Shown here one piece after another: positions 7,006 to 43,900 of a DNA stretch of 64,000 nt (its first letter is position 1; the number at the start of each line of letters is the position of its first letter). Made by a program: the position numbers and the translations under genes. Source of the stretch: Octopus vulgaris (Eukaryota); the NCBI GenBank assembly GCA_951406725.2, contig OX597818.1, forward strand, positions 23,436,001-23,500,000, written 5' to 3'. The notes beneath the pieces are model-generated. The model had not been told where the DNA came from. It was given only the letters and a program-made list of their open reading frames with translations, and did not search any database.

Positions 7006-7407
7006 TTAGAAATTTAATATTTCTGATTATCACAAAGAAAATATGAAAAACTGGAGCTGATTGAAATTAAATATTTCAACTAAATATATGAAAGCAATAA
7101 GTAGAAGAATGTTACTACCACTTAGCAGTGTGGCCAAGAGAGACTGATAGAATAATTACAGACTTATAGTAAGTACTGGAGCTAATTTGTTTAACTAAAA
7201 ACTCACATGTGGTACTCCAGTATGGCCACAATCTAATGACTGAAACAAATAAAGGAGAGAAAGCGTTTCAATTTTTAACATGCATATGTATTATTCTTCA
7301 CTCTCACTTTATGCCAAGCATATTTAGCTTCTTAAAAAAACGCACACAAGATTAAGTTAGTCTATTCCATTTCTAACACTGCACCAACATAAAATTATAT
7401 AACATAC

Positions 7408-7721
7408 CTCCATTGTAAGAATATCAGGTTTAGCAGTAACTCCATATGGTTTCAGATCCAAATCACCAATACTCCTTGTCATGGCTAAACGGCCATTGAC
7501 ATGTGATCGTCCTAAACTGTTCAAAGAAATGAAACCGCCACATTTTTTGATGCGAGAAGCTTCTTCCTCAACTTCAGGATCATGGTCTTGAGTCAGACGA
7601 ACTGCTTTTCCCTGTCGGCAAAGAATAGCACAACTGTCGCCAACATGTCCTATCACCAATCCAACACTGTTTTTCAGTAAACATACAGTAGCTGTTGTCC
7701 CACAATGGAAATTGGAAGAAC
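7408..7721 (-). CDS. PPM1K: Protein phosphatase 1K (mitochondrial PP2C), internal coding exon
   Basis: [10 protein letters not shown]...[15 protein letters not shown]...TQDHDP...[35 protein letters not shown] closely matches PPM1K. Acceptor ttcttgtag|G at 7722/7721 and donor GAG|gtatg at 7408/7407. Phase-1 join with the upstream exon gives LLFS-R-SSNFHCG. Confidence 0.92.
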
Positions 7722-8034
7722 CTACAAGAATACATAACATTAAAATAAACAATAATTATAAAAAACACCAAAGGCTGAAATTACAAATGACACCTAAGTA
7801 TTAACCTATTTTATGGTAATCATGAAAATTATACCAACCATGGCTGTGTGGTTAAGATGTTTAGTTTGCATCTACATGGCTTCAGGTTCAATCCTACTGT
7901 ACAGCACCTTGGGCAAATGTCTTCTACTAGAAGCTGGAGCTGGTCAATGCCTTATGAATGAATTTGGTAGATGGAAAGTGTGGAAACCTGTTATGTGTGT
8001 GTGTGTATATATATATACATATATATATATTTAT

Positions 8035-8315
8035 TGGCTGTTGCCAGCCTCGTCTGGCCTCCGTGCTGGTGGCACATAAAAAGCATCATCCGATCATGGC
8101 CGTTTGCCAGCCTCGTCTGGCACCTGTGCCGGTGGCACGTAAAAAGCACCCACTACACTCATGGAGTGGTTGGCGTTAAGAAGGGCATCCAGCCATAGAA
8201 ACATTGCCAGATCAGACTGGGCCTGGTGCAGCCTTCTGGTTTCCCAGACCCCAGTTGAACCATCCAACCCATGCCAGCATGGAAAGCGGACGCTAAACGA
8301 TGATAATGATGATGA
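8035..8315 (+). mobile_element. RTE-tail repeat inserted in the microsatellite of a SINE (host about 7838-8500)
   Basis: Ends CCATGCCAGCATGGAAAGCGGACGCTAAACGATGATAATG, the 3' tail shared with the RTE copies ending near 34560 and 41160. Confidence 0.7.
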
Positions 8316-8942
8316 TATATATATTTATATGTGTGTGTCTTTGTCTCTCTCCAACACTGCTTGACAACCAGTGTTGGTTTGTTTACATCCCTAAAGCTTA
8401 GCAGTTCAGCCTAAGAGACTGATAGAATAAGTATCAGACATAAAAATAACTATTGAGGCTAATTTTTTCAACTAAAACTCTTCAAGGTAATGTCCCAGAA
8501 CAAAGATAGTAGTCTTATGGTCCAAGAAAGAGGTTGTGCAATTTTTTGCTGGACACCTGCATAAATGATTTGTTTATAGTGACTAAATGCATGTGCTGCA
8601 CATTGGCGGCTCACTCTTTCCATCAAATCGGTGTTGCTTGAACAGTTGCACAGCACACAACACATCAGGTGCTGGAATGATCGCAGAGCAACACGAAATG
8701 TAGTGTTTTGCTCAAGAACACAAAGCACTACCTGGTCCAGGAATTGAAACCATGACTTTGCAATTGAGAATGCAACACTCTAACCACCAAACCATGCACC
8801 CTCGACAATGCCCCAGTATGGGCACAGTTCAATGACAGAAACAAGTAAAATATAAAAGATATACCTTCAAAAATTTGTTCATTTGTTTTGTAGATCAGAC
8901 AGATCATTTGCAAATTACAAATATCTTAATCTTATCATATAT

Positions 8943-9335
8943 GCGTAGGAGTGGCTGTGTGGTAAGTAGCTTGGTTACCAGCCACATGGTTCCAGGTTCA
9001 GTCCCACTGCGTGGCACCTTGGGCAAGTGTCTTCTACTATAGCCTCGGACTGACCAAAGCCTTGTGAGTGGATTTGGTAGACGGAAACTGAAAGAAGCCC
9101 GTCGTATATATGTATATATATATGTGTGTGTTTGTGTGTCTGTTTGTCCTCCCAACATCGCTTGACAACTGATGCTGGTGTGTCTACGTCCCCGTAACTT
9201 AGCGGTTTGGCAAAAGAGAACTGATAGAATAAGTACTAGGCTTACAAAGAATAAGTCCTGGGGTCGATTTGCTCGACTAAAGATGGTGCTCCAGCATGGC
9301 CACAGTCAAATGACTGAAACAAGTACAAAGAGAGA
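8943..9335 (+). mobile_element. Near full-length young tRNA-derived SINE
   Basis: A-box/B-box-like head TGGCTGTGTGG...GGTTCAGTCCC, central (TA)/(TG) microsatellite, tail ...CAAATGACTGAAACAAGTA. Near-identical copies at 37467-37866 and 46528-46932. Confidence 0.85.
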
Positions 9336-10810
9336 AAGAGAAAGAGATACCTTTTGTACTTTAACTATTAATTTGAACTCTTTCACATCAGCCTCAAACG
9401 TGTTAGTCCAAGTTTTCTTTGTCCATACTATTCTGATATATATATATCCATACAGGCATAGCTATGTTGTTATGAAGCTTGTTTTGCTGTCATATGGTTT
9501 TGGGTTCAGTCCCACAGCATGGCATCTTTGGCAAGTATCTTCTACTATAGCCTAGGGGCAAACAAAGCTTTGTGAGTGAATTGGTAGACAAAAACTGAAA
9601 GAATCCTCTGTGTGTGTGTGCGTGTATGTGTGTGTGTGTGTGTGTGTCTTTGTCTAGACATCACATTACTGTTGTAAGTGAGCATTATCATTGCATAGAC
9701 AAGGTTGTTCATTTCCAGTCTTCCATGAAAAATATGTCTGAGCATGGGGAAATATTATCATGCTTGGAAACAAGCAAAGGTTGGTGACAGGAAGAGTATC
9801 TGGCTGTATAAAATTTACCTCAACATATTTCATCTGACCCATGCAAGCAAGGAAAAGTGGATGTTAAATGATGATGATGTTGATGATGATTTGATAGCCT
9901 ACATCTTTTACTCATTTTTTAATAATATATCCATACCAATTACATCTCTTTGAAAAACAATATCTAAGCTTGCCTGGACAGTCTAACAATGCAGTTGTCA
10001 CTATATGTCCCAAGCTAAACTTAATTTCATGCTTTCATAGCTTTATTTAATTTGGTGTTATACTAAGCTTTGAAAGAATGAGACACCAAATATATGTTGA
10101 CCCACTAATCTGATATACAGTCTTTAACTGTTAAACTAATCATGACCACCATCATCATTTTGACATCCACTTTTCTATGTTTACATGGATCAAACAAAAA
10201 TCATTAACATAGGTTCCCTACAGCCTGATGTCCTTCCTGTTTCCAGCCTTCACCTGTTTCCAAGCAAGGTAATATTCTTTAATAGCTTCACATGTATATT
10301 TCCACAGAAGATTGGTAATGAAATATTCTCATTTACAACTACTGCATCATGTCAGGACAAGGAGATACATACACACACATATGATGGGCTTCTTTCAGTT
10401 TTGGTCAACCAAATTCGCTCACAATGCTTTGGTGAACCCATGATAAGAGTAGAAGACACTTTCTTAAGGTGTCACAAAACCAGGTTGTTAGGAAGCACAG
10501 CCCATATACCTGTACTCACCTCCAATATATACAATAGCTCATGACCCATAAAACAATATATTTTTCAGATACCATTTGATCTACTCTTCAATAAAAAAAA
10601 AAAACATTTTTGGCCAACATGAGCAAATATCTAAATATTCCTCTAATAACAATGAATAACAGCATTAAGTTATTTCATTGTAAAGACCACACAAAATGTA
10701 AAGACAGTGAAATACTGACTCTCATCACCCCACAAAAAAAAACTATAATAATTGCATTCCAAAGAAGAATTATTCCCAATTAATTAAAAAAGAAAGTGAG
10801 CAAAACATAC

Positions 10811-11342
10811 GTGAGAAAAGTAAATAACGGGCAAGTTGGTTGTTGACATCTATAAATGATTGCTTAATAACTTCTTCCAGATCATCAGTTTGGTTCAACC
10901 AAAACAAAATGCTCTTCTTCATCTTTTGATTGACAAAATCAACAGCTTCTGTACCCGCATGTCCGTCAAACATTCCAAAATAGAGAAGATTGGGAGAAAG
11001 TTCTTCAACAGCATAGCGATCTTCATTAACTTTACGCCGTCCTAACAGTGTAGCACTTCCAATTTCTGTCAATGGAATTTTGGGAATAATCTTGCCTCGT
11101 TCAATACTTTCTTCATAGTGAATTGGTAACTCAAGACGACTATTCCAACAGCCAAGGGTGTCAAAGTTAATTCCAGCTTGTCGACTACCTTTGTTCTCAG
11201 GATCAGATAGAAACCTATAGTTTTTTGAAGAAGTGTGGTAGAATTTCTGTTTTAATTGAGTTACAGTTGGCTTCTGAGAAATTAAAAGCCATTGAGCCTT
11301 GATCAAAGAGGCTAGTTGAGCAGGTTGTCTTGAGATAAGCAT
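10811..11342 (-). CDS. PPM1K: Protein phosphatase 1K, first coding exon (transit peptide plus PP2C N-terminus)
   Basis: Basic, acid-free N-terminus; FDTLGCWNSRLELPI; GRRKVNEDRY; YFGMFDGHAG metal-binding motif. Acceptor ccctctatttcag| gives exon start 11375, ATG at 11342, donor C|gtatg at 10811/10810. Confidence 0.92.
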
Positions 11343-12254
11343 CCAAGAAGTTTCAAATAGCAGTAATAATTTCTTCTGAAATAGAGGGAAAAAGAAGCAT
11401 TTTATTAATGTACAACTGAAGGCTCTCTTAATATATAAAAAGAAAACCCTTTTCCAAAGATTTTTTGAGAAAGTAACAGTCTCTTTTTGTGTTGAATCAA
11501 GCTCAAATGCGGTTAAATTGGAGTACTATTCATATATCTGAGGCAATACTACTGCACCATATACAAGTAGTTTGTACAGCACTGCCACCACTAACTCCAC
11601 CAAAACAAAAACAAAAATTATCTGACTGAATAATAGGGATTTGTTCACCAACACACTACAACCCCTAGCAGACAATTATGCAATTTTTAGTAAATGAGAG
11701 AGCTTCAATACTGTCACTCAAACTGTAAGAAATAGCAGCCAAATAGCCCTCAAATCATACCTTACCATCTTTAAAAAAAAGGACCCATTAGATAATGTAG
11801 TCTAAAATTAGATAAACTATGTTTGAAACAAAGACATAACAATTGTGACAAATATGTCTCTGATGAAAGGAACTTCTAAATCAGCTTGAGCCTGAAGTTA
11901 TACAACAATCATGTTGTTCCTTTTCCATGTTTCCTCTACTACTACAACAATTTATTTTTTACTCCTCTTGGCAAGAAAGTTACATCTCATTCCTGCCCAA
12001 CATCACCTAATTAATACAGAGTTTTCATCAAATCTCAAACCTTGAAACTAACAGTTTCCCCAATCTTTCTTCTCAAAACCAGAGCTCTTTGATATTCTTC
12101 TTCTGCCCACATATTTTCTCCATAGACATCAACTTCTTCAATCTGGGGGTGGTCTGCAGCCCTCATGTTCATGGGTAAAGCCCCTCAATATTCCTCAGGG
12201 CTAGTCTCTAATCTAGTCATTAGAAACATACCACAGTTTAAATCATCTCTAAAA

Positions 12255-20953: not shown

Positions 20954-22247
20954 CGAGGGGCGTTCAATAAGTAATGCCCCTGACCCACTTCGCATAGCAG
21001 TAGAGCAACGAAACTTGGCACAGTTATTAGTCTTTTTATACATAGGAACCACCCAGAGTTACGCATTTCTCCCATCGTTTGATGCAGCCCTGGAGACTGT
21101 TTTTCTAGAAGACCCCAGCTTGGTCCTCCAGCCACGACGTGACTTCAGAAATCAAGGCTGCATCATCTGGGAAACGCCTTCCTTTCAAAAACAACTTCAT
21201 GGCTGGGAAGAGGTGAAAATCAGAGGGTGCAAGGTCAGGAGTGTAGGGGGGATGGGGGAGGAGTTCATAGCAGCACGCCTGCGCTTCTGATCTGGCGACA
21301 CGCGAGTTGTGGATCGGAGCGTTGTCCTGCAGGAGGAGGATGCCTTTGCTGATCTTGCCCCGCCTCTTGATTTTGATAGCTTCTCTTAATTTCATCAAAA
21401 GTGAAGCATAATAGGCTCCTGTAATTGTGGTAACATTTGCCAGAAAATCTGTCATCACTATTCCGTCCTGGTCCCAGAAGACTGTGAGCATGACCTTACC
21501 AGCGGAGGGCTGCACCCTTGCCTTCTTTGGAGGAGGTGAGTCACGGTGCTTCCACTGCATTGACTGGGCTTTGGTCTCTAGATCATAGTGATGGACCCAG
21601 GTTTCATCCTGTGTAATCATTCTTTTGAAAAATTTTGACTCATGTTCTTGGCACATCTCCAAATTCATCCTCGAGCACTCGACGCATTCTTGCTTCTGGA
21701 AAGGTGTGAGCAACCTGGGAATCCATCTGGCAGACACCTTTTTGCATATGCAAATGGTCATGAATGATAGTTTCCACAGACCCGGTACTAATCTTGACCT
21801 CATGGGCTATTTGGCGAATAGTTATGCGTCGATCTTCCAAAATAGCAGCCTCAACTTGATGGACAGATGCCTCATCAATGGCAGAAGGGGGGCGACCAGA
21901 TCTGGGGGCTGTTTCCACAAAGTTCCGACCATGTTTGAATTCACGATGCCAGCGTTTTACAAGGTCATATGATGGGGCATTATCACCATAAGTTACTTTC
22001 ATTTCATCAAAAGTCTCCCGTGGTGTGCGTCCTTTCAAATACAAAAACCGGATCACTGCTCGACACTCAACAGGCTCCATTTCACACTTGACTCAGTTCA
22101 AACACCTGTAAATCAAAAACCACAATTAGTTCAGAGCTGTGATTCGCCACGTAATCTATAGAGATATAAATAATTGCACATGCAGAATTTCAGCTAGATC
22201 AAACTACTGCAAGTGGGTCAGAGGCATTACTTATTGAATGTCCCTCG
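20954..22247 (-). mobile_element. Full-length mariner transposon (about 1.29 kb, DD34D)
   Basis: TA-flanked TIRs CGAGGGGCGTTCAATAAGTAATGCCCCTGACCC / GGGTCAGAGGCATTACTTATTGAATGTCCCTCG. Confidence 0.95.
21027..22080 (-). pseudogene. Mariner transposase pseudogene
   Basis: HTH region, W(I)PRLLT, QDETWVHHY, LLQDNAPIH and HPPYTPDLAPSDFHLF are all present. One extra base in the T-run 21739-21743 and premature stops at 21105-07 and near 21036. Confidence 0.92.
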
Positions 22248-22509: not shown

Positions 22510-22680
22510 TCTATATTTAAGAGATGAGGAACTATGTACATTATTTACAATTGACGGATATTTGTCCTCATCTTGTTTGTTGTTAACACAATGTTTCGGC
22601 TGATATACCCTCCAGTCTTCTTCAGGTGTCTTGGGGATATTTCGAACCTGGGTTCTCGTTCCTAAGGTATTTTTCGATGT
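22510..22680 (-). mobile_element. Penelope-like pLTR with degenerate minimal hammerhead
   Basis: Minus strand GACAC-CTGAAGA-AGACTG...CAGCC-GAAA-CA-TT-GTGTT. Second copy at 35450-35610 (+). Confidence 0.6.
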
Positions 22681-35449: not shown

Positions 35450-35610
35450 CAACATTGAAAAGTACCTTAGGAAATAGAACCCAGGTTCAAAATTTCCCCA
35501 AGACATCTGATGAAGGCTGAAACGTGTTAACAACAAACAAGATGAGGACAAATATCTGTCAATGTAAATAATGTTAACAATTTACATAATTCCTCATCTC
35601 TTAAATATAA
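34845..35610 (+). mobile_element. Cluster: tRNA-like head, (AAT)n, retroposon, (AAT)n, Penelope-like pLTR
   Basis: GAGTTCGATTCC B-box-like head; segment shared with 25750-26232; pLTR shared with 22510-22680, including CTGATGA-AGGCT-GAAAC (stem II deleted). Confidence 0.65.
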
Positions 35611-35862
35611 TGACTAGAGGGTCTCTCACTTCCAGCTTTAGGTTGGCCATTTACTCTACTAAGTTCATTTGTCTTTTGACAGGCATTGTTTTCCCTCCTG
35701 CAGTGTCTAACAGAAACAACCCTCCATACCAAGCAAGCTTGGTTGGGCTGGCATGTGACAGATTGTACTGGTTAACAGTAACTCTAAGAGTTATCTATAT
35801 ATATATATGTACACACACACACACACAAATAAATAACTATGTCTATATTTCTGTCCATACTC

Positions 35863-35908
<46 letters not shown>

Positions 35909-35963
35909 TGTGTATAAAAATCATAAATCTGAAAGAAGAAGCACACTCTAAGATGTAGAATAG

Positions 35964-36228
35964 TATATATTAAAAATGGGGAAGTACAGTTTATGGAATT
36001 ACCTTAGCTTTCCCATCCATAAAGGGTTTAGCTTTGTGGTGTATTGTCAGATCCCAAAAACCTGTTGGCCTACGAACTTTTAAAAATATGGCATTTCCCC
36101 ATCCATGTTTTTAAGAGTCATGGGCCAACAGGTTTTTGGGATCTGATGATACGCCATAAAACTAAACCCTTTATGGATGGGAAACCTAAGGTAATCCCAT
36201 AAACCAGCCTTTCCCATTTAAATATATA
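35964..36228. mobile_element. Palindromic (inverted pLTR) Penelope-like insertion in (TA)n
   Basis: About 125-bp arms (35964-36091 vs 36103-36228), about 11-nt loop; each arm carries a hammerhead motif. Confidence 0.75.
36131..36205 (+). ncRNA. Type I hammerhead ribozyme motif
   Basis: Stem I GGTTTTTGGGAT/ATCCCATAAACC (11 of 12 pairs); CTGATGA 36143-49; stem II CCATAAA/TTTATGG with imperfect base; GAAA 36181-84; short stem III ACC-TAA-GGT; GUA cleavage triplet ending at 36193. Confidence 0.65.
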
Positions 36229-36784
36229 TATATATATTACTTCCAGCTGTGGGCTGACCATTGACTCTACTAAGTTCATTTGTCTTTTGACATGCTTTGT
36301 TTTCCCCCCTTCAGTATCTAACAGAAACGACCCTCCATACCAAGCAGGAGTGGCTGTGTGGTAAGTAGCTTGCTTACCAACTACATGGTCTGGGTTCAGT
36401 CACACTGTGTGACACCTTGGGCAAGTGTCTTCAACTATAGCCTCCAGCTATATATATATATATATTTATGATATATGATAAATAAAGAATTGGACTTAAA
36501 CACAGTTGTTATTCAAATCTTTATACTTCCAACATATGTTTCGAAGAAAACATTAGTATTATTCCAGAGGGAATAAAATGATGTAAAACAATGCAATCTT
36601 CTCACCAGGGAAAAAAAGAAACAAAACATATCAATAAGCCATTTTAACAGAATGTGATGACTGGAATTTCTACCTTTATATGTAGACCATAGCATCTTGG
36701 GTACTTATGTGGATTTTTTGCATTCATTTATTTTTTCTGTGTTATTTGTACACATTGAAAAAATACACAATCATTTATATGTGC

Positions 36785-37866
<1,082 letters not shown>

Positions 37867-41599: not shown

Positions 41600-43900
41600 A
41601 ACAATTATTCCTGGAGATTAAGACATGTAATAAATTACTGTAAACACTACTGGAAAATTTGTCGAAATCGCTTCACAGCGGACTATTTTTTTGTCATCTC
41701 CAAACTGCTTGGCGTAAGAACACTTGAGTAGTGATTCGCCTATCAACATGGCGAACATGTTTGCGTACAGGTGGTCTTGGCTACCTCTTAGCCTGTTATT
41801 TTATTTGGATTTATCCCTTTTTCTTACTGTCCAGGCGAAACGATTCGGTTCAGATTCTAAGACCATTCATCTGCCAGAAACAGGGTCAGATTTATACAAT
41901 GTTGATGATAGAACTCGTATATTGAAAGTGGACCCGAATTTCGACAAGAATCGAGCGATGTCGATGCTCTCACCAGACGAGACATTATTTAATAACGATA
42001 ATGTTGGTGATAATAAAATACGAAAGAAGCGTGAAGCATCGTCGCCTTTTCTTACTAACATGACTACAGAGGTAAGAATTTTTCACAGTTTCTCTTTATT
42101 GCTTCCTGTCGTTTGGCCGGTTAAAGCAACCAATTCCTTACCTCATGTTTGTATTCTTCAGCACCCTGACGTCAGGCTCATTATCTATGTCTTGTGTATC
42201 TATGTTTACTATAACTTGATACTGTCGATTTTTAGTCTTACTATTTTGCCTAGTTTCATAGTCTCTTTGTTGCCTTTTTATTTACTCTACCAGTGAGAAA
42301 TTATTGTCATAAATCTTATTCCTGCTGCCACTTCTTTTTGTTTGTTATCTTTGTGATTATTATTGCTGTAGTCAAGGCGTTCACCCAGATATTATCGAAG
42401 GCGACTGCCCAACAATGTAAATATTGTTTTTCCTTCCCACTATTATTGCTCAACACACGCAGAACGGTTTTAATCCATATGTAAATAATCCATCCTTAGT
42501 TCCTCCTTGCTCAACTAAAATCATTTTTTTTTTTATCAATTAATTAAATGACTAAGAAAAAAAATTGCTATATATGGTAAAATTATATTTATCTGGAAAA
42601 CCAACTCGCTACATTGTGTATCACTAAATATTTTCTTTCGATTTCTGGTGTGTACATGGACACACGCACACACATATCGAGAATAATGTATTCATTTATG
42701 CTGTCTTGATTACGATTGTCTAATATCTGATATTTTTGTGTGTTCTCTGTCTTACGTTGATAATAATATTACTTACATACGAGTGATTACTTTATGTTCT
42801 AAATTTTTTGAGTAATTTTATTCATTATATTAAGGTGGTCCGCACGGTGTGCACCACTTTCTTGTTTTATATATTTCTGACTGGTTATGTAAGTAAATGC
42901 ATCTTTGGTCGAGTGAGGTGGACCCTGAAATTCCGAGGAAGGGCATAGCAAAAATTTAGTAGAATCATATGTTATACCAATTTAAACTTTAATTGTACTG
43001 TTTAATTATAATTAAAAATTGTTTCATCCCAGTTCGACTGGTTTGATGGAACATGGCAAAAGTGTTAGAAGAACCTAAATTATTTACCTATAGAACTTCT
43101 CTGTTGTCAAGACAAAAGCATGTCAGACAACTACGACGGTTCCGCTGAAAGATGCTGATATACATAAAAGGCAAGGATGAAGACATTTCTTATAACAGGA
43201 GAAGTATACGTATTGATATATTCTTGTCGCAAAATGAAATTTGCGACTGGAGTAAAAACCATAGAACTCGACAGTAAACTACCAAAGATCCAGAAATTAG
43301 GCATGAAAGCCTCTGTACAGTTACATAAAGAAAGGAAAATAAAATTCATATTTAAATGCGTATTTCATTCAGACAAATAAAAACATCCCCCTCCTTCTGT
43401 CTCGTTGAGAAGGTTTATTGTGTATATCGTAAACAATCTAAAAATAACTACAATTCAGTGGACTTCCCAAGTCTTTTCACACTTTCTTTACCCGCTGTTT
43501 ATGACGCCGATTCAAAATTGTTTCGTTCACCAAACCTCCTCTCCGAATACGTCAAAAATAAGAAAATGAATGATGTCAAGTGGTAAGTCGAGCAGGACAA
43601 GTGGTCAGTTTAAATTCGTGACAGTTCGTGGTGAGAGCATCACATCATTGCTATCTATAGCAATTTGAATGAATTCCATTGACAGGAAAGAAGAAAAAAA
43701 ACCACCAAAAAGAGAGAGATTGTACGTTTGTACGAATTGTAGTTGGCTCCTCTACGCGACCAAATATCCTTCAGATCATATCCTATTGTTTTCAGGGAAG
43801 AAAAGAAGGGGGAAAAAAGCCCATCAGATAATGTAGTCTTAGATATACCAGGTCTCATAATAAAAAAGGGATGATATTGCTCGGACGACTTTGACCACAG
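41600..43900 (+). promoter_or_regulatory. CpG-retaining 5' region of the SORL1-like gene
   Basis: More CpGs than the flanks; YY1-like CAACATGGCG over the start codon; full CRE inside the 12-bp palindrome CCTGACGTCAGG at 42165-42176. Confidence 0.45.
41748..42071 (+). CDS. SORL1: First coding exon of a Vps10p-family receptor, probably sortilin-related receptor (108 codons)
   Basis: Strong Kozak CAACATGG; hydrophobic signal peptide ending VQA; furin site RKKR 13 aa before a phase-0 donor GAG|gtaaga. This matches the exon-1 architecture of SORL1 as I recall it. The exon is well supported; the gene name is an inference because no Vps10 domain exon is in the window. Confidence 0.6.

What the first reader, a model, noticed from the sequence alone, without database searches (positions are those of the whole stretch)
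35964..36228. Palindromic insert holding two outward-facing hammerhead ribozymes, one with a canonical core
Seen: a 265-bp palindrome in (TA)n. The right arm (+) has stem I of 11/12 bp, CTGATGA, stem II, GAAA, ACC-TAA-GGT and a GUA site. The left arm (-) reads CTGACAA and GAAAG. Both cores derive from CTGACGA by opposite CpG deaminations, one harmless and one inactivating. Most arm mismatches are G-U compatible on +. Established: Penelope-like elements carry type I hammerheads with very short stem III and often insert as inverted pLTRs. Inference: a read-through transcript would sequester the ribozyme in the long hairpin, while one starting in the loop could cleave, so the two folds are mutually exclusive. 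The base of stem II is imperfect, so activity is uncertain.
Basis: partly seen in the sequence, partly recalled or inferred. Interest (0 to 1): 0.75.

Follow-up and report, generated by a model that had tools for sequence, protein, structure and literature searches.

The report
Decayed mirror-image stub of Penelope retrotransposon
The palindrome is two head-to-head, mutated copies of the tail end of a Penelope-like jumping gene that is common in this genome, each carrying that element's hammerhead RNA motif, so it is likely ordinary insertion debris and not a regulatory switch.

Summary
The palindrome and both hammerhead (HHR) motifs are real. The insert is 321 bp (35908-36228), not 265: a 56-nt tail lies on the left arm only. 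It is one copy of a dispersed family. Longer copies run on into a single RT plus C-terminal endonuclease frame with the Hydra-clade motifs of Penelope-like elements. The closest named relative is Hydra-1_Obim (Craig 2021), which has a different HHR.

Head-to-head arms, a one-sided tail and TA targets are the described anatomy of these insertions. The switch reading is not supported:
- G-U mismatches show no strand bias (170 vs 154).
- Cores decay independently on the two arms.
- The right arm is predicted to misfold when RNA starts in the loop.
- No transcript of this copy was shown.

Worth noting: 34 of 37 two-armed copies have exactly one tail and none has two; a UAA/CAG change in loop III keeps pairing only in a dimer; the endonuclease carries a long N/S/T-rich insert. 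The scan has noted such palindromes and the one-tail rule elsewhere in this genome.

The parts
35908..36228 (.). Whole insertion: two head-to-head, 5'-truncated 3' ends of a Hydra-clade Penelope-like element
   Evidence: Alignment of 21 copies shows shared ends and variable centres; full-length copy L067 carries the same 3' end after the ORF
35908..35963 (-).
   Evidence: exactly one tail in 34 of 37 two-armed copies
35908..36091 (-). Left arm: 3' UTR of the element, long end
   Evidence: 20 differences from the family majority
35988..36062 (-). Left hammerhead, predicted dead: G8A at 36045, stem III broken at 36008, stem II weakened at 36036 and 36040
   Evidence: stem II probability 0.02, stem III 0.0; HHR fold -7.7 against minimum -14.6 kcal/mol
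36090..36097 (.). Junction and loop; the arms overlap by a 2-nt GG microhomology; position differs between copies
   Evidence: 28 simple junctions listed, with different 5' starts
36090..36228 (+). Right arm: 3' UTR of the element, short end stopping in an internal TATATA
   Evidence: 10 differences from the family majority
36131..36205 (+). Right type I hammerhead: core 36143-36149 and 36181-36184, stem II 36152-36160/36170-36179 with one bulged A, stem III 36184-36192, predicted cut after 36193
   Evidence: all 11 core nucleotides match the family majority
36223..36237 (.). (TA)n target run on the right flank
   Evidence: TA runs flank most copies

Best explanation
This is a decayed, doubly 5'-truncated copy of the 3' end of a Hydra-clade Penelope-like retrotransposon, likely made when the element's protein nicked both strands at a TA site and reverse-transcribed uncleaved element RNA from each nick, and likely without function at this site. 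Shown here: family membership, the physical link to an RT plus endonuclease frame, the Hydra motifs, head-to-head arms, the one-sided tail and CpG-driven decay. Inferred from Poseidon biochemistry (Frangieh 2024): nicking and extension of both strands, two RT start sites giving the short and long ends, and joining of the two truncated cDNAs in the middle. In the active element the hammerhead was probably functional and probably needed a partner copy for stem III, or the protein. In this copy the left one is predicted dead and the right one predicted weak.
For: Family: 81 matches from 40 scored of 2073 first-look candidates (not a copy number). 15 of 29 loci found with the right arm share long upstream sequence, which in the 8 loci translated encodes the endonuclease end. 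25 of 30 loci found with an RT probe carry the HHR arm within 1.5 kb, 13 of them in sense just downstream of the frame (one is the probe's own locus and two loci overlap). L067 has the full order: (TA)n, inverted tail-less arm, ORF with RWK, DKT, YRDD, CxCX5C, CxxC..E..N..CxH, then HHR, tail, TA. tblastn of two 703-704-aa database RT proteins covers it collinearly, E 2e-73 and 9e-79. Craig 2021 describes inverted 5'-truncated copies, one-sided tails and (TA)n targets. Neutral decay: CpG positions differ in 254 of 846 cells against 988 of 11283 for other non-core positions. Intact cores per pair are 0/1/2 in 13/17/7 of 37 pairs, close to independence (12.5/18/6.5 by arithmetic). G-U 170 vs 154, p=0.40. 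The family majority folds as a hammerhead at minimum energy from any 5' start (stem I 0.93, stem II 0.96).
Against: No cleavage assay was run. No intact ORF was found: all 30 RT loci examined are broken, so the family may be extinct. Pfam names none of six translated fragments; clade assignment rests on motifs and a by-eye comparison with the published Hydra-1_Obim, not on a tree. Non-CpG core positions are somewhat better kept than base-matched neighbours (52 mismatches against 86.5 expected, position-level p=0.036). I read this as selection on the source elements, but weak selection after insertion is not excluded. Arms of one insertion share more variants than arms of different insertions (2.05 vs 0.56); a common template and later gene conversion were not told apart.
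Confidence: 0.9

Rival explanations
1. The copy is a working RNA switch: read-through RNA hides the ribozyme in the hairpin, while RNA starting in the loop cleaves at 36193.
For: Right core intact; the isolated 75-nt motif folds largely as a hammerhead (0.74/0.63/0.35); starts at 36104-36120 give stem I 0.39-0.49. Penelope promoters are reported to lie in the pLTR, so outward transcription from an arm is conceivable.
Against: Loop starts misfold (0.02-0.05). No G-U bias and independent core decay across the family. The site seems intergenic, about 5.5 kb before a probable first coding exon at 41748 (+) and far from PP2C exons on -. Short-stem-III PLE hammerheads showed no cleavage as monomers, and an inverted pair supplies no same-strand partner.
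Confidence: 0.04
2. The 321-bp palindrome is a non-autonomous element (MITE-like or retrozyme-like) that moves as a unit.
For: Many copies have similar total length and fixed outer ends.
Against: The centre differs from copy to copy, and arm spacing runs from about 0 to 2.7 kb. The ends are asymmetric (tail), and the arms continue into the RT-endonuclease frame. The similar lengths reflect my query.
Confidence: 0.04
3. The hammerhead shape is a fossil that was already inactive in the source element, because stem II opens with U-G and two bulged A's.
For: No canonical G10.1-C11.1 pair (canonical pair recalled): U opposite G in 77 of 103 arms, U in 9, A in 9. No Rfam hit. Clear two-sided compensatory changes in stems I and II are few (0-2 arms per pair outside the two CpG pairs at the base of stem II).
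Against: The majority sequence folds as a hammerhead; the core is better kept than its neighbours; the loop III double change preserves dimer pairing; 14 of 25 Hydra families in Craig's motif table have U opposite U at this position (my count; these are predictions, not assays).
Confidence: 0.2

Closest known systems
Hydra-1_Obim and the Hydra clade of C-terminal EN+ Penelope-like elements (Craig et al. 2021, PMC8557442; passages, section 11, supplement parts 2 and 52 and searches seen)
   Same: RWK, DKT, CxCX5C linker, CxxC and CxH around E and N, (TA)n target, 3' type I HHR whose stem III is a palindrome around one unpaired base. The RT is very close by eye: 23 of 25 residues match from just before YRDD onward. 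Penelope-13_HM is annotated there with a 5'-truncated inverted copy.
   Different: Different HHR sequence, with a longer stem I (11 of 12 pairs) and a 10-bp stem II with a bulge. The spacer between the two halves of the GIY-YIG motif is 207-1021 nt in the 6 of 30 loci where both motifs could be read (some may hold later insertions), against 15-17 aa in 7 database relatives and about 28 aa in Hydra-1_Obim (read). The L067 copy spans about 2.9 kb from junction to tail; the published consensus is 2507 bp.
PLE hammerheads of metazoans (Cervera and De la Pena 2014, PMC4209133; abstract and Results read)
   Same: Type I, long helix II with an unpaired base at its 5' end, short palindromic helix III, opposite-strand pairs 100-700 bp apart, a bulge in helix II in the D. 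virilis variant.
   Different: Helix I here is much longer (12 against 2-5 bp) and helix III is present, not minimal.
Poseidon element PAc of Anolis (Frangieh et al. 2024, PMC11167929; passages and second half of main text read)
   Same: Tail defined by two RT start sites, AT-rich target, both strands nicked and extended, uncleaved RNA as template; both arms here retain the uncut site.
   Different: Different clade; tail 30-40 nt there, 56 nt here; in the parts read, that paper does not report a one-tail-per-inverted-pair rule.
Animal non-LTR retrozymes (Li et al. 2026, 10.64898/2026.07.22.740005; part 1 of 5 read)
   Same: Type I HHR derived from PLE ends, non-coding.
   Different: Retrozymes are head-to-tail tandem arrays with at least two same-strand HHRs; this is a single inverted pair.

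Membership tests
Hydra-clade PLE | Single ORF, RT followed by a C-terminal GIY-YIG-type endonuclease | tested here: met
   L067 collinear with two full-length database proteins, with frameshifts; the window copy itself holds only the 3' UTR
Hydra-clade PLE | RWK motif and DKT in place of DKG | tested here: met
   Both at the expected places in L067, L075, L078, L079, L085, L087
Hydra-clade PLE | CxCX5C linker | tested here: met
   At the expected place in L067 and many others; the regex matched 22 of 30 loci, a few of them off-site chance matches
Hydra-clade PLE | CxxC and CxH flanking conserved E and N in the endonuclease | tested here: met
   Translations; absence of CCHH judged by eye only
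Hydra-clade PLE | (TA)n insertion preference | tested here: met
   TA-rich consensus on both flanks of 21 aligned copies; in the window a TA run on the right, a single TA on the left
Hydra-clade PLE | Short length (<3 kb) | tested here: inconclusive
   L067 is about 2.9 kb with internal deletions; copies with longer endonuclease inserts exceed 3 kb
Hydra-clade PLE | Placement in the Hydra clade on an RT tree | not tested
   Published reference proteins were seen only in the supplement; no tree was built
EN+ PLE insertion anatomy | Inverted 5'-truncated copy joined at the 5' end; tail at one end only | tested here: met
   37 two-armed loci: one tail 34, none 3, both 0
Type I hammerhead | CUGANGA, GAAA and NUH in register with stems I-III | tested here: met
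   Right arm and family majority; the left arm fails at G8 and stem III
Type I hammerhead | Watson-Crick 10.1-11.1 pair (recalled as canonical) | tested here: not met
   U opposite G, then a bulged A; common deviation in Hydra HHRs
Type I hammerhead | Match to an Rfam hammerhead model | tested here: not met
   No hit at E<=1
Type I hammerhead | Self-cleavage | not testable with these tools
   Needs an in vitro assay
Non-LTR retrozyme | Head-to-tail tandem units, each with an HHR | tested here: not met
   One HHR per strand, inverted
MITE / fold-back DNA element | Fixed internal sequence moved as a unit between symmetric terminal repeats | tested here: not met
   Variable junctions and asymmetric ends
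Naiad PLE | N-terminal endonuclease, no canonical HHR | tested here: not met
   Endonuclease is C-terminal and an HHR is present

The most novel reading that the evidence does not exclude
The hammerhead's palindromic stem III is a clasp that pairs two element RNAs in one particle. A dimeric Hydra protein copies one RNA from each nicked strand, always one from the near start site and one from the far. That would give the ribozyme a structural job in retrotransposition and explain together the head-to-head arms, the strict one-tail rule (34 of 37, never two; chi-square p=2e-7 against independent choice) and the UAA/CAG change that keeps only intermolecular pairing (11 of 106 arms, probably one inherited event).
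Probability: 0.12. Interest if true: 0.65.

Novelty: new member of a known kind. Interest (0 to 1): 0.2.

Why it matters
As a locus it matters little: it is one of many decayed stubs. As a family it adds a second octopus-type Hydra element with an unusual long-stem hammerhead and an endonuclease split by a long N/S/T-rich insert. Its copies record a strict short-end/long-end rule that any model of Penelope-type integration must explain. What PLE hammerheads are for is still open, and this family offers a natural pair of stem III variants to test dimer dependence.

Tried and rejected
Rfam scan: no hammerhead hit.

Pfam on six RT or endonuclease fragments: nothing significant. One of two database relatives gave a sub-threshold RVT_1 hit.

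Expression: no RNA holder listed. Contigs of two guessed-RNA runs and two runs of unknown kind cover the element only as a mixture of family copies, with no start, end or strand information; this is no evidence either way. Whether a spliced transcript spans the site remains open.

G-U strand bias: rejected. MITE or unit-transposing palindrome: rejected. Naiad: considered because of the TA target, rejected on domain order.

Two-sided changes at the two base pairs of stem II (13 and 10 arms) are double CpG decay and were not counted as covariation.

A paper on PLE hammerheads cleaving as dimers (recalled) could not be retrieved: one search returned an unrelated paper, one search found nothing, one search showed only citing papers. 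Nothing is taken from it.

Sequence look-up in earlier findings returned nothing. Print searches found no description of this family beyond Hydra-1_Obim. Repbase and Dfam were not searchable, so it may be catalogued there. The bioRxiv supplement of Li 2026 was not seen.

Full report
Observation. The inverted repeat is present: the arms differ at 17 substitutions and 3 single-base gaps. On +, 36131-36205 has every element of a type I hammerhead in register, with the predicted cut after A36193. A descriptor written after seeing the motif finds only this site in the window and none in 100 shuffled windows. Rfam does not detect it.

Family. A search of the own genome gave 81 matches from 40 scored of 2073 candidates, at about 74-91% identity apart from the window itself. 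In 21 aligned copies the outer ends are shared and the centre differs. Searching with the inner part of the right arm returned copies that run further 5': 15 of 29 share upstream sequence, which translates to an endonuclease end and, in L044/L062, an RT with YRDD. Of 30 loci found with that RT, 25 carry the hammerhead arm and 13 carry it in sense directly after the frame. L067 shows the whole design: TA run, inverted tail-less arm, ORF, hammerhead, tail, TA. All 30 loci have broken frames.

Clade. Craig et al. 2021 define Hydra by RWK, DKT, CxCX5C, CxxC and CxH around E and N, canonical HHRs and (TA)n targets. The protein motifs and the TA target are all found here. Their Hydra-1_Obim is very close in RT by eye but has another HHR and a short spacer in the GIY-YIG motif, so this is a sister family. 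A UniRef hit from Octopus bimaculoides at 66% identity fits an octopus host (inference). Pfam does not name the fragments, and no tree was built.

The ribozyme in the family. The majority sequence folds as a hammerhead at minimum energy whatever the 5' start. 40 of 98 arms spanning the motif keep all 11 core nucleotides. Of 43 arms without gaps in the motif that were folded, 4 keep both the core and stems I and II above 0.5. Non-CpG core positions are modestly better kept than base-matched neighbours (p=0.036). Stem II opens with U-G and a bulged A in the majority; 14 of 25 Hydra families in Craig's table have U opposite U there (my count), so this is a clade trait of untested effect. Loop III is UAA in 80 and CAG in 11 of 106 arms, with 2 and 7 single changes. 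Both forms pair as 8-bp intermolecular duplexes (-8.2 and -11.6 kcal/mol), while the isolated 9-mer does not fold. This favours dimer use, as proposed for PLE hammerheads, but is probably one inherited event.

The ribozyme in this copy. The left motif has G8A and a broken stem III and is predicted not to fold; loss of G8 abolishes activity in the Anolis element (G8C). The right motif keeps its core, but changes at 36101 and 36178 create a rival helix, 36098-36107 with 36172-36181. With RNA starting at 36092 or 36096 stem I probability is 0.02-0.05; with starts at 36104-36120 it is 0.39-0.49; for the bare motif it is 0.74. In the whole palindrome it is 0.0. The 'loop start cleaves' half of the switch is therefore not supported by the folding model.

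No sign of selection on the pair. Over 34 one-tailed pairs, mismatches are G-U on one strand 170 times, on the other 154, neither 186 (p=0.40). Intact cores per pair are 13/17/7 for 0/1/2, as independent decay predicts. Arms of one insertion are closer than arms of different insertions (0.127 vs 0.163; shared non-CpG variants 2.05 vs 0.56), as expected if both were copied from one source element; gene conversion is not excluded. The site appears intergenic, between PP2C exons on - (7357-11525; Pfam hit for 7360-7755) and a probable first exon at 41748 on +, which may belong to the Vps10-domain gene about 45 kb past the window end (link inferred). Expression data were uninformative.

Mechanism. 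In the Anolis Poseidon system the protein nicks and extends both strands, prefers AT-rich DNA, starts at two internal sites that bound the tail, and uses uncleaved RNA. Applied here by inference: two cDNAs were primed at a TA site, one from the far start (left arm, tail) and one from the near start (right arm); both stopped after 140-185 nt and joined through a GG microhomology. Of 37 two-armed loci, 34 have one tail, 3 none and 0 two (p=2e-7 against independent choice). 5 of 42 inverted arm pairings listed were dropped as fragments or second pairings at a locus. [quoted passage not shown] Earlier notes of this scan report the same rule in other families of this genome; I count them as leads, not support.

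Verdict. A real but ordinary retrotransposon stub: new member of a known kind, interest 0.2. The dimer-clasp reading is the boldest one not excluded (probability 0.12).

Noticed in passing
L067:2316-2908; also L079, L085, L088, L092, L093: The family's endonuclease has a long, variable N/S/T-rich insert (207-1021 nt) between the two halves of the GIY-YIG motif, against 15-17 aa in database relatives; Hydra-1_Obim has a short N/S/T-rich stretch at the same place.
   Followed up: partly
window 35460-35600 (+) and around 22625 (-): Two ends of another repeat family with a hammerhead core; the one at 35507 has lost the middle of stem II, the one at 22625 has core and stem II but degenerate surroundings. 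Penelope identity is recalled, not tested.
   Followed up: no
window 35628-35745 and 36239-36356: A 118-nt direct repeat (87%) brackets the microsatellites and the insertion; low depth in laid contigs suggests a local duplication, not part of the element.
   Followed up: no
window 36344-36445 and 37221-37675: A very high-copy SINE-like repeat begins at 36344; two more copies form an inverted pair around the (TA)n run at 37310-37467.
   Followed up: no
window 41748-42073 (+): Probable first coding exon with a hydrophobic N-terminus, a KKR site and a GT donor; may start the Vps10/sortilin-family gene found at C5:23544449-23551528. No Pfam hit for the exon itself.
   Followed up: partly
window 21105-22092 (-): Mariner-type transposase remnant in two frames (PF01359).
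   Followed up: no
L053 and L054 (C8, about 96 kb apart): Two insertions with near-identical flanks (94% over 1.1 kb), so a segmental duplication; both were counted as separate arms.
   Followed up: no
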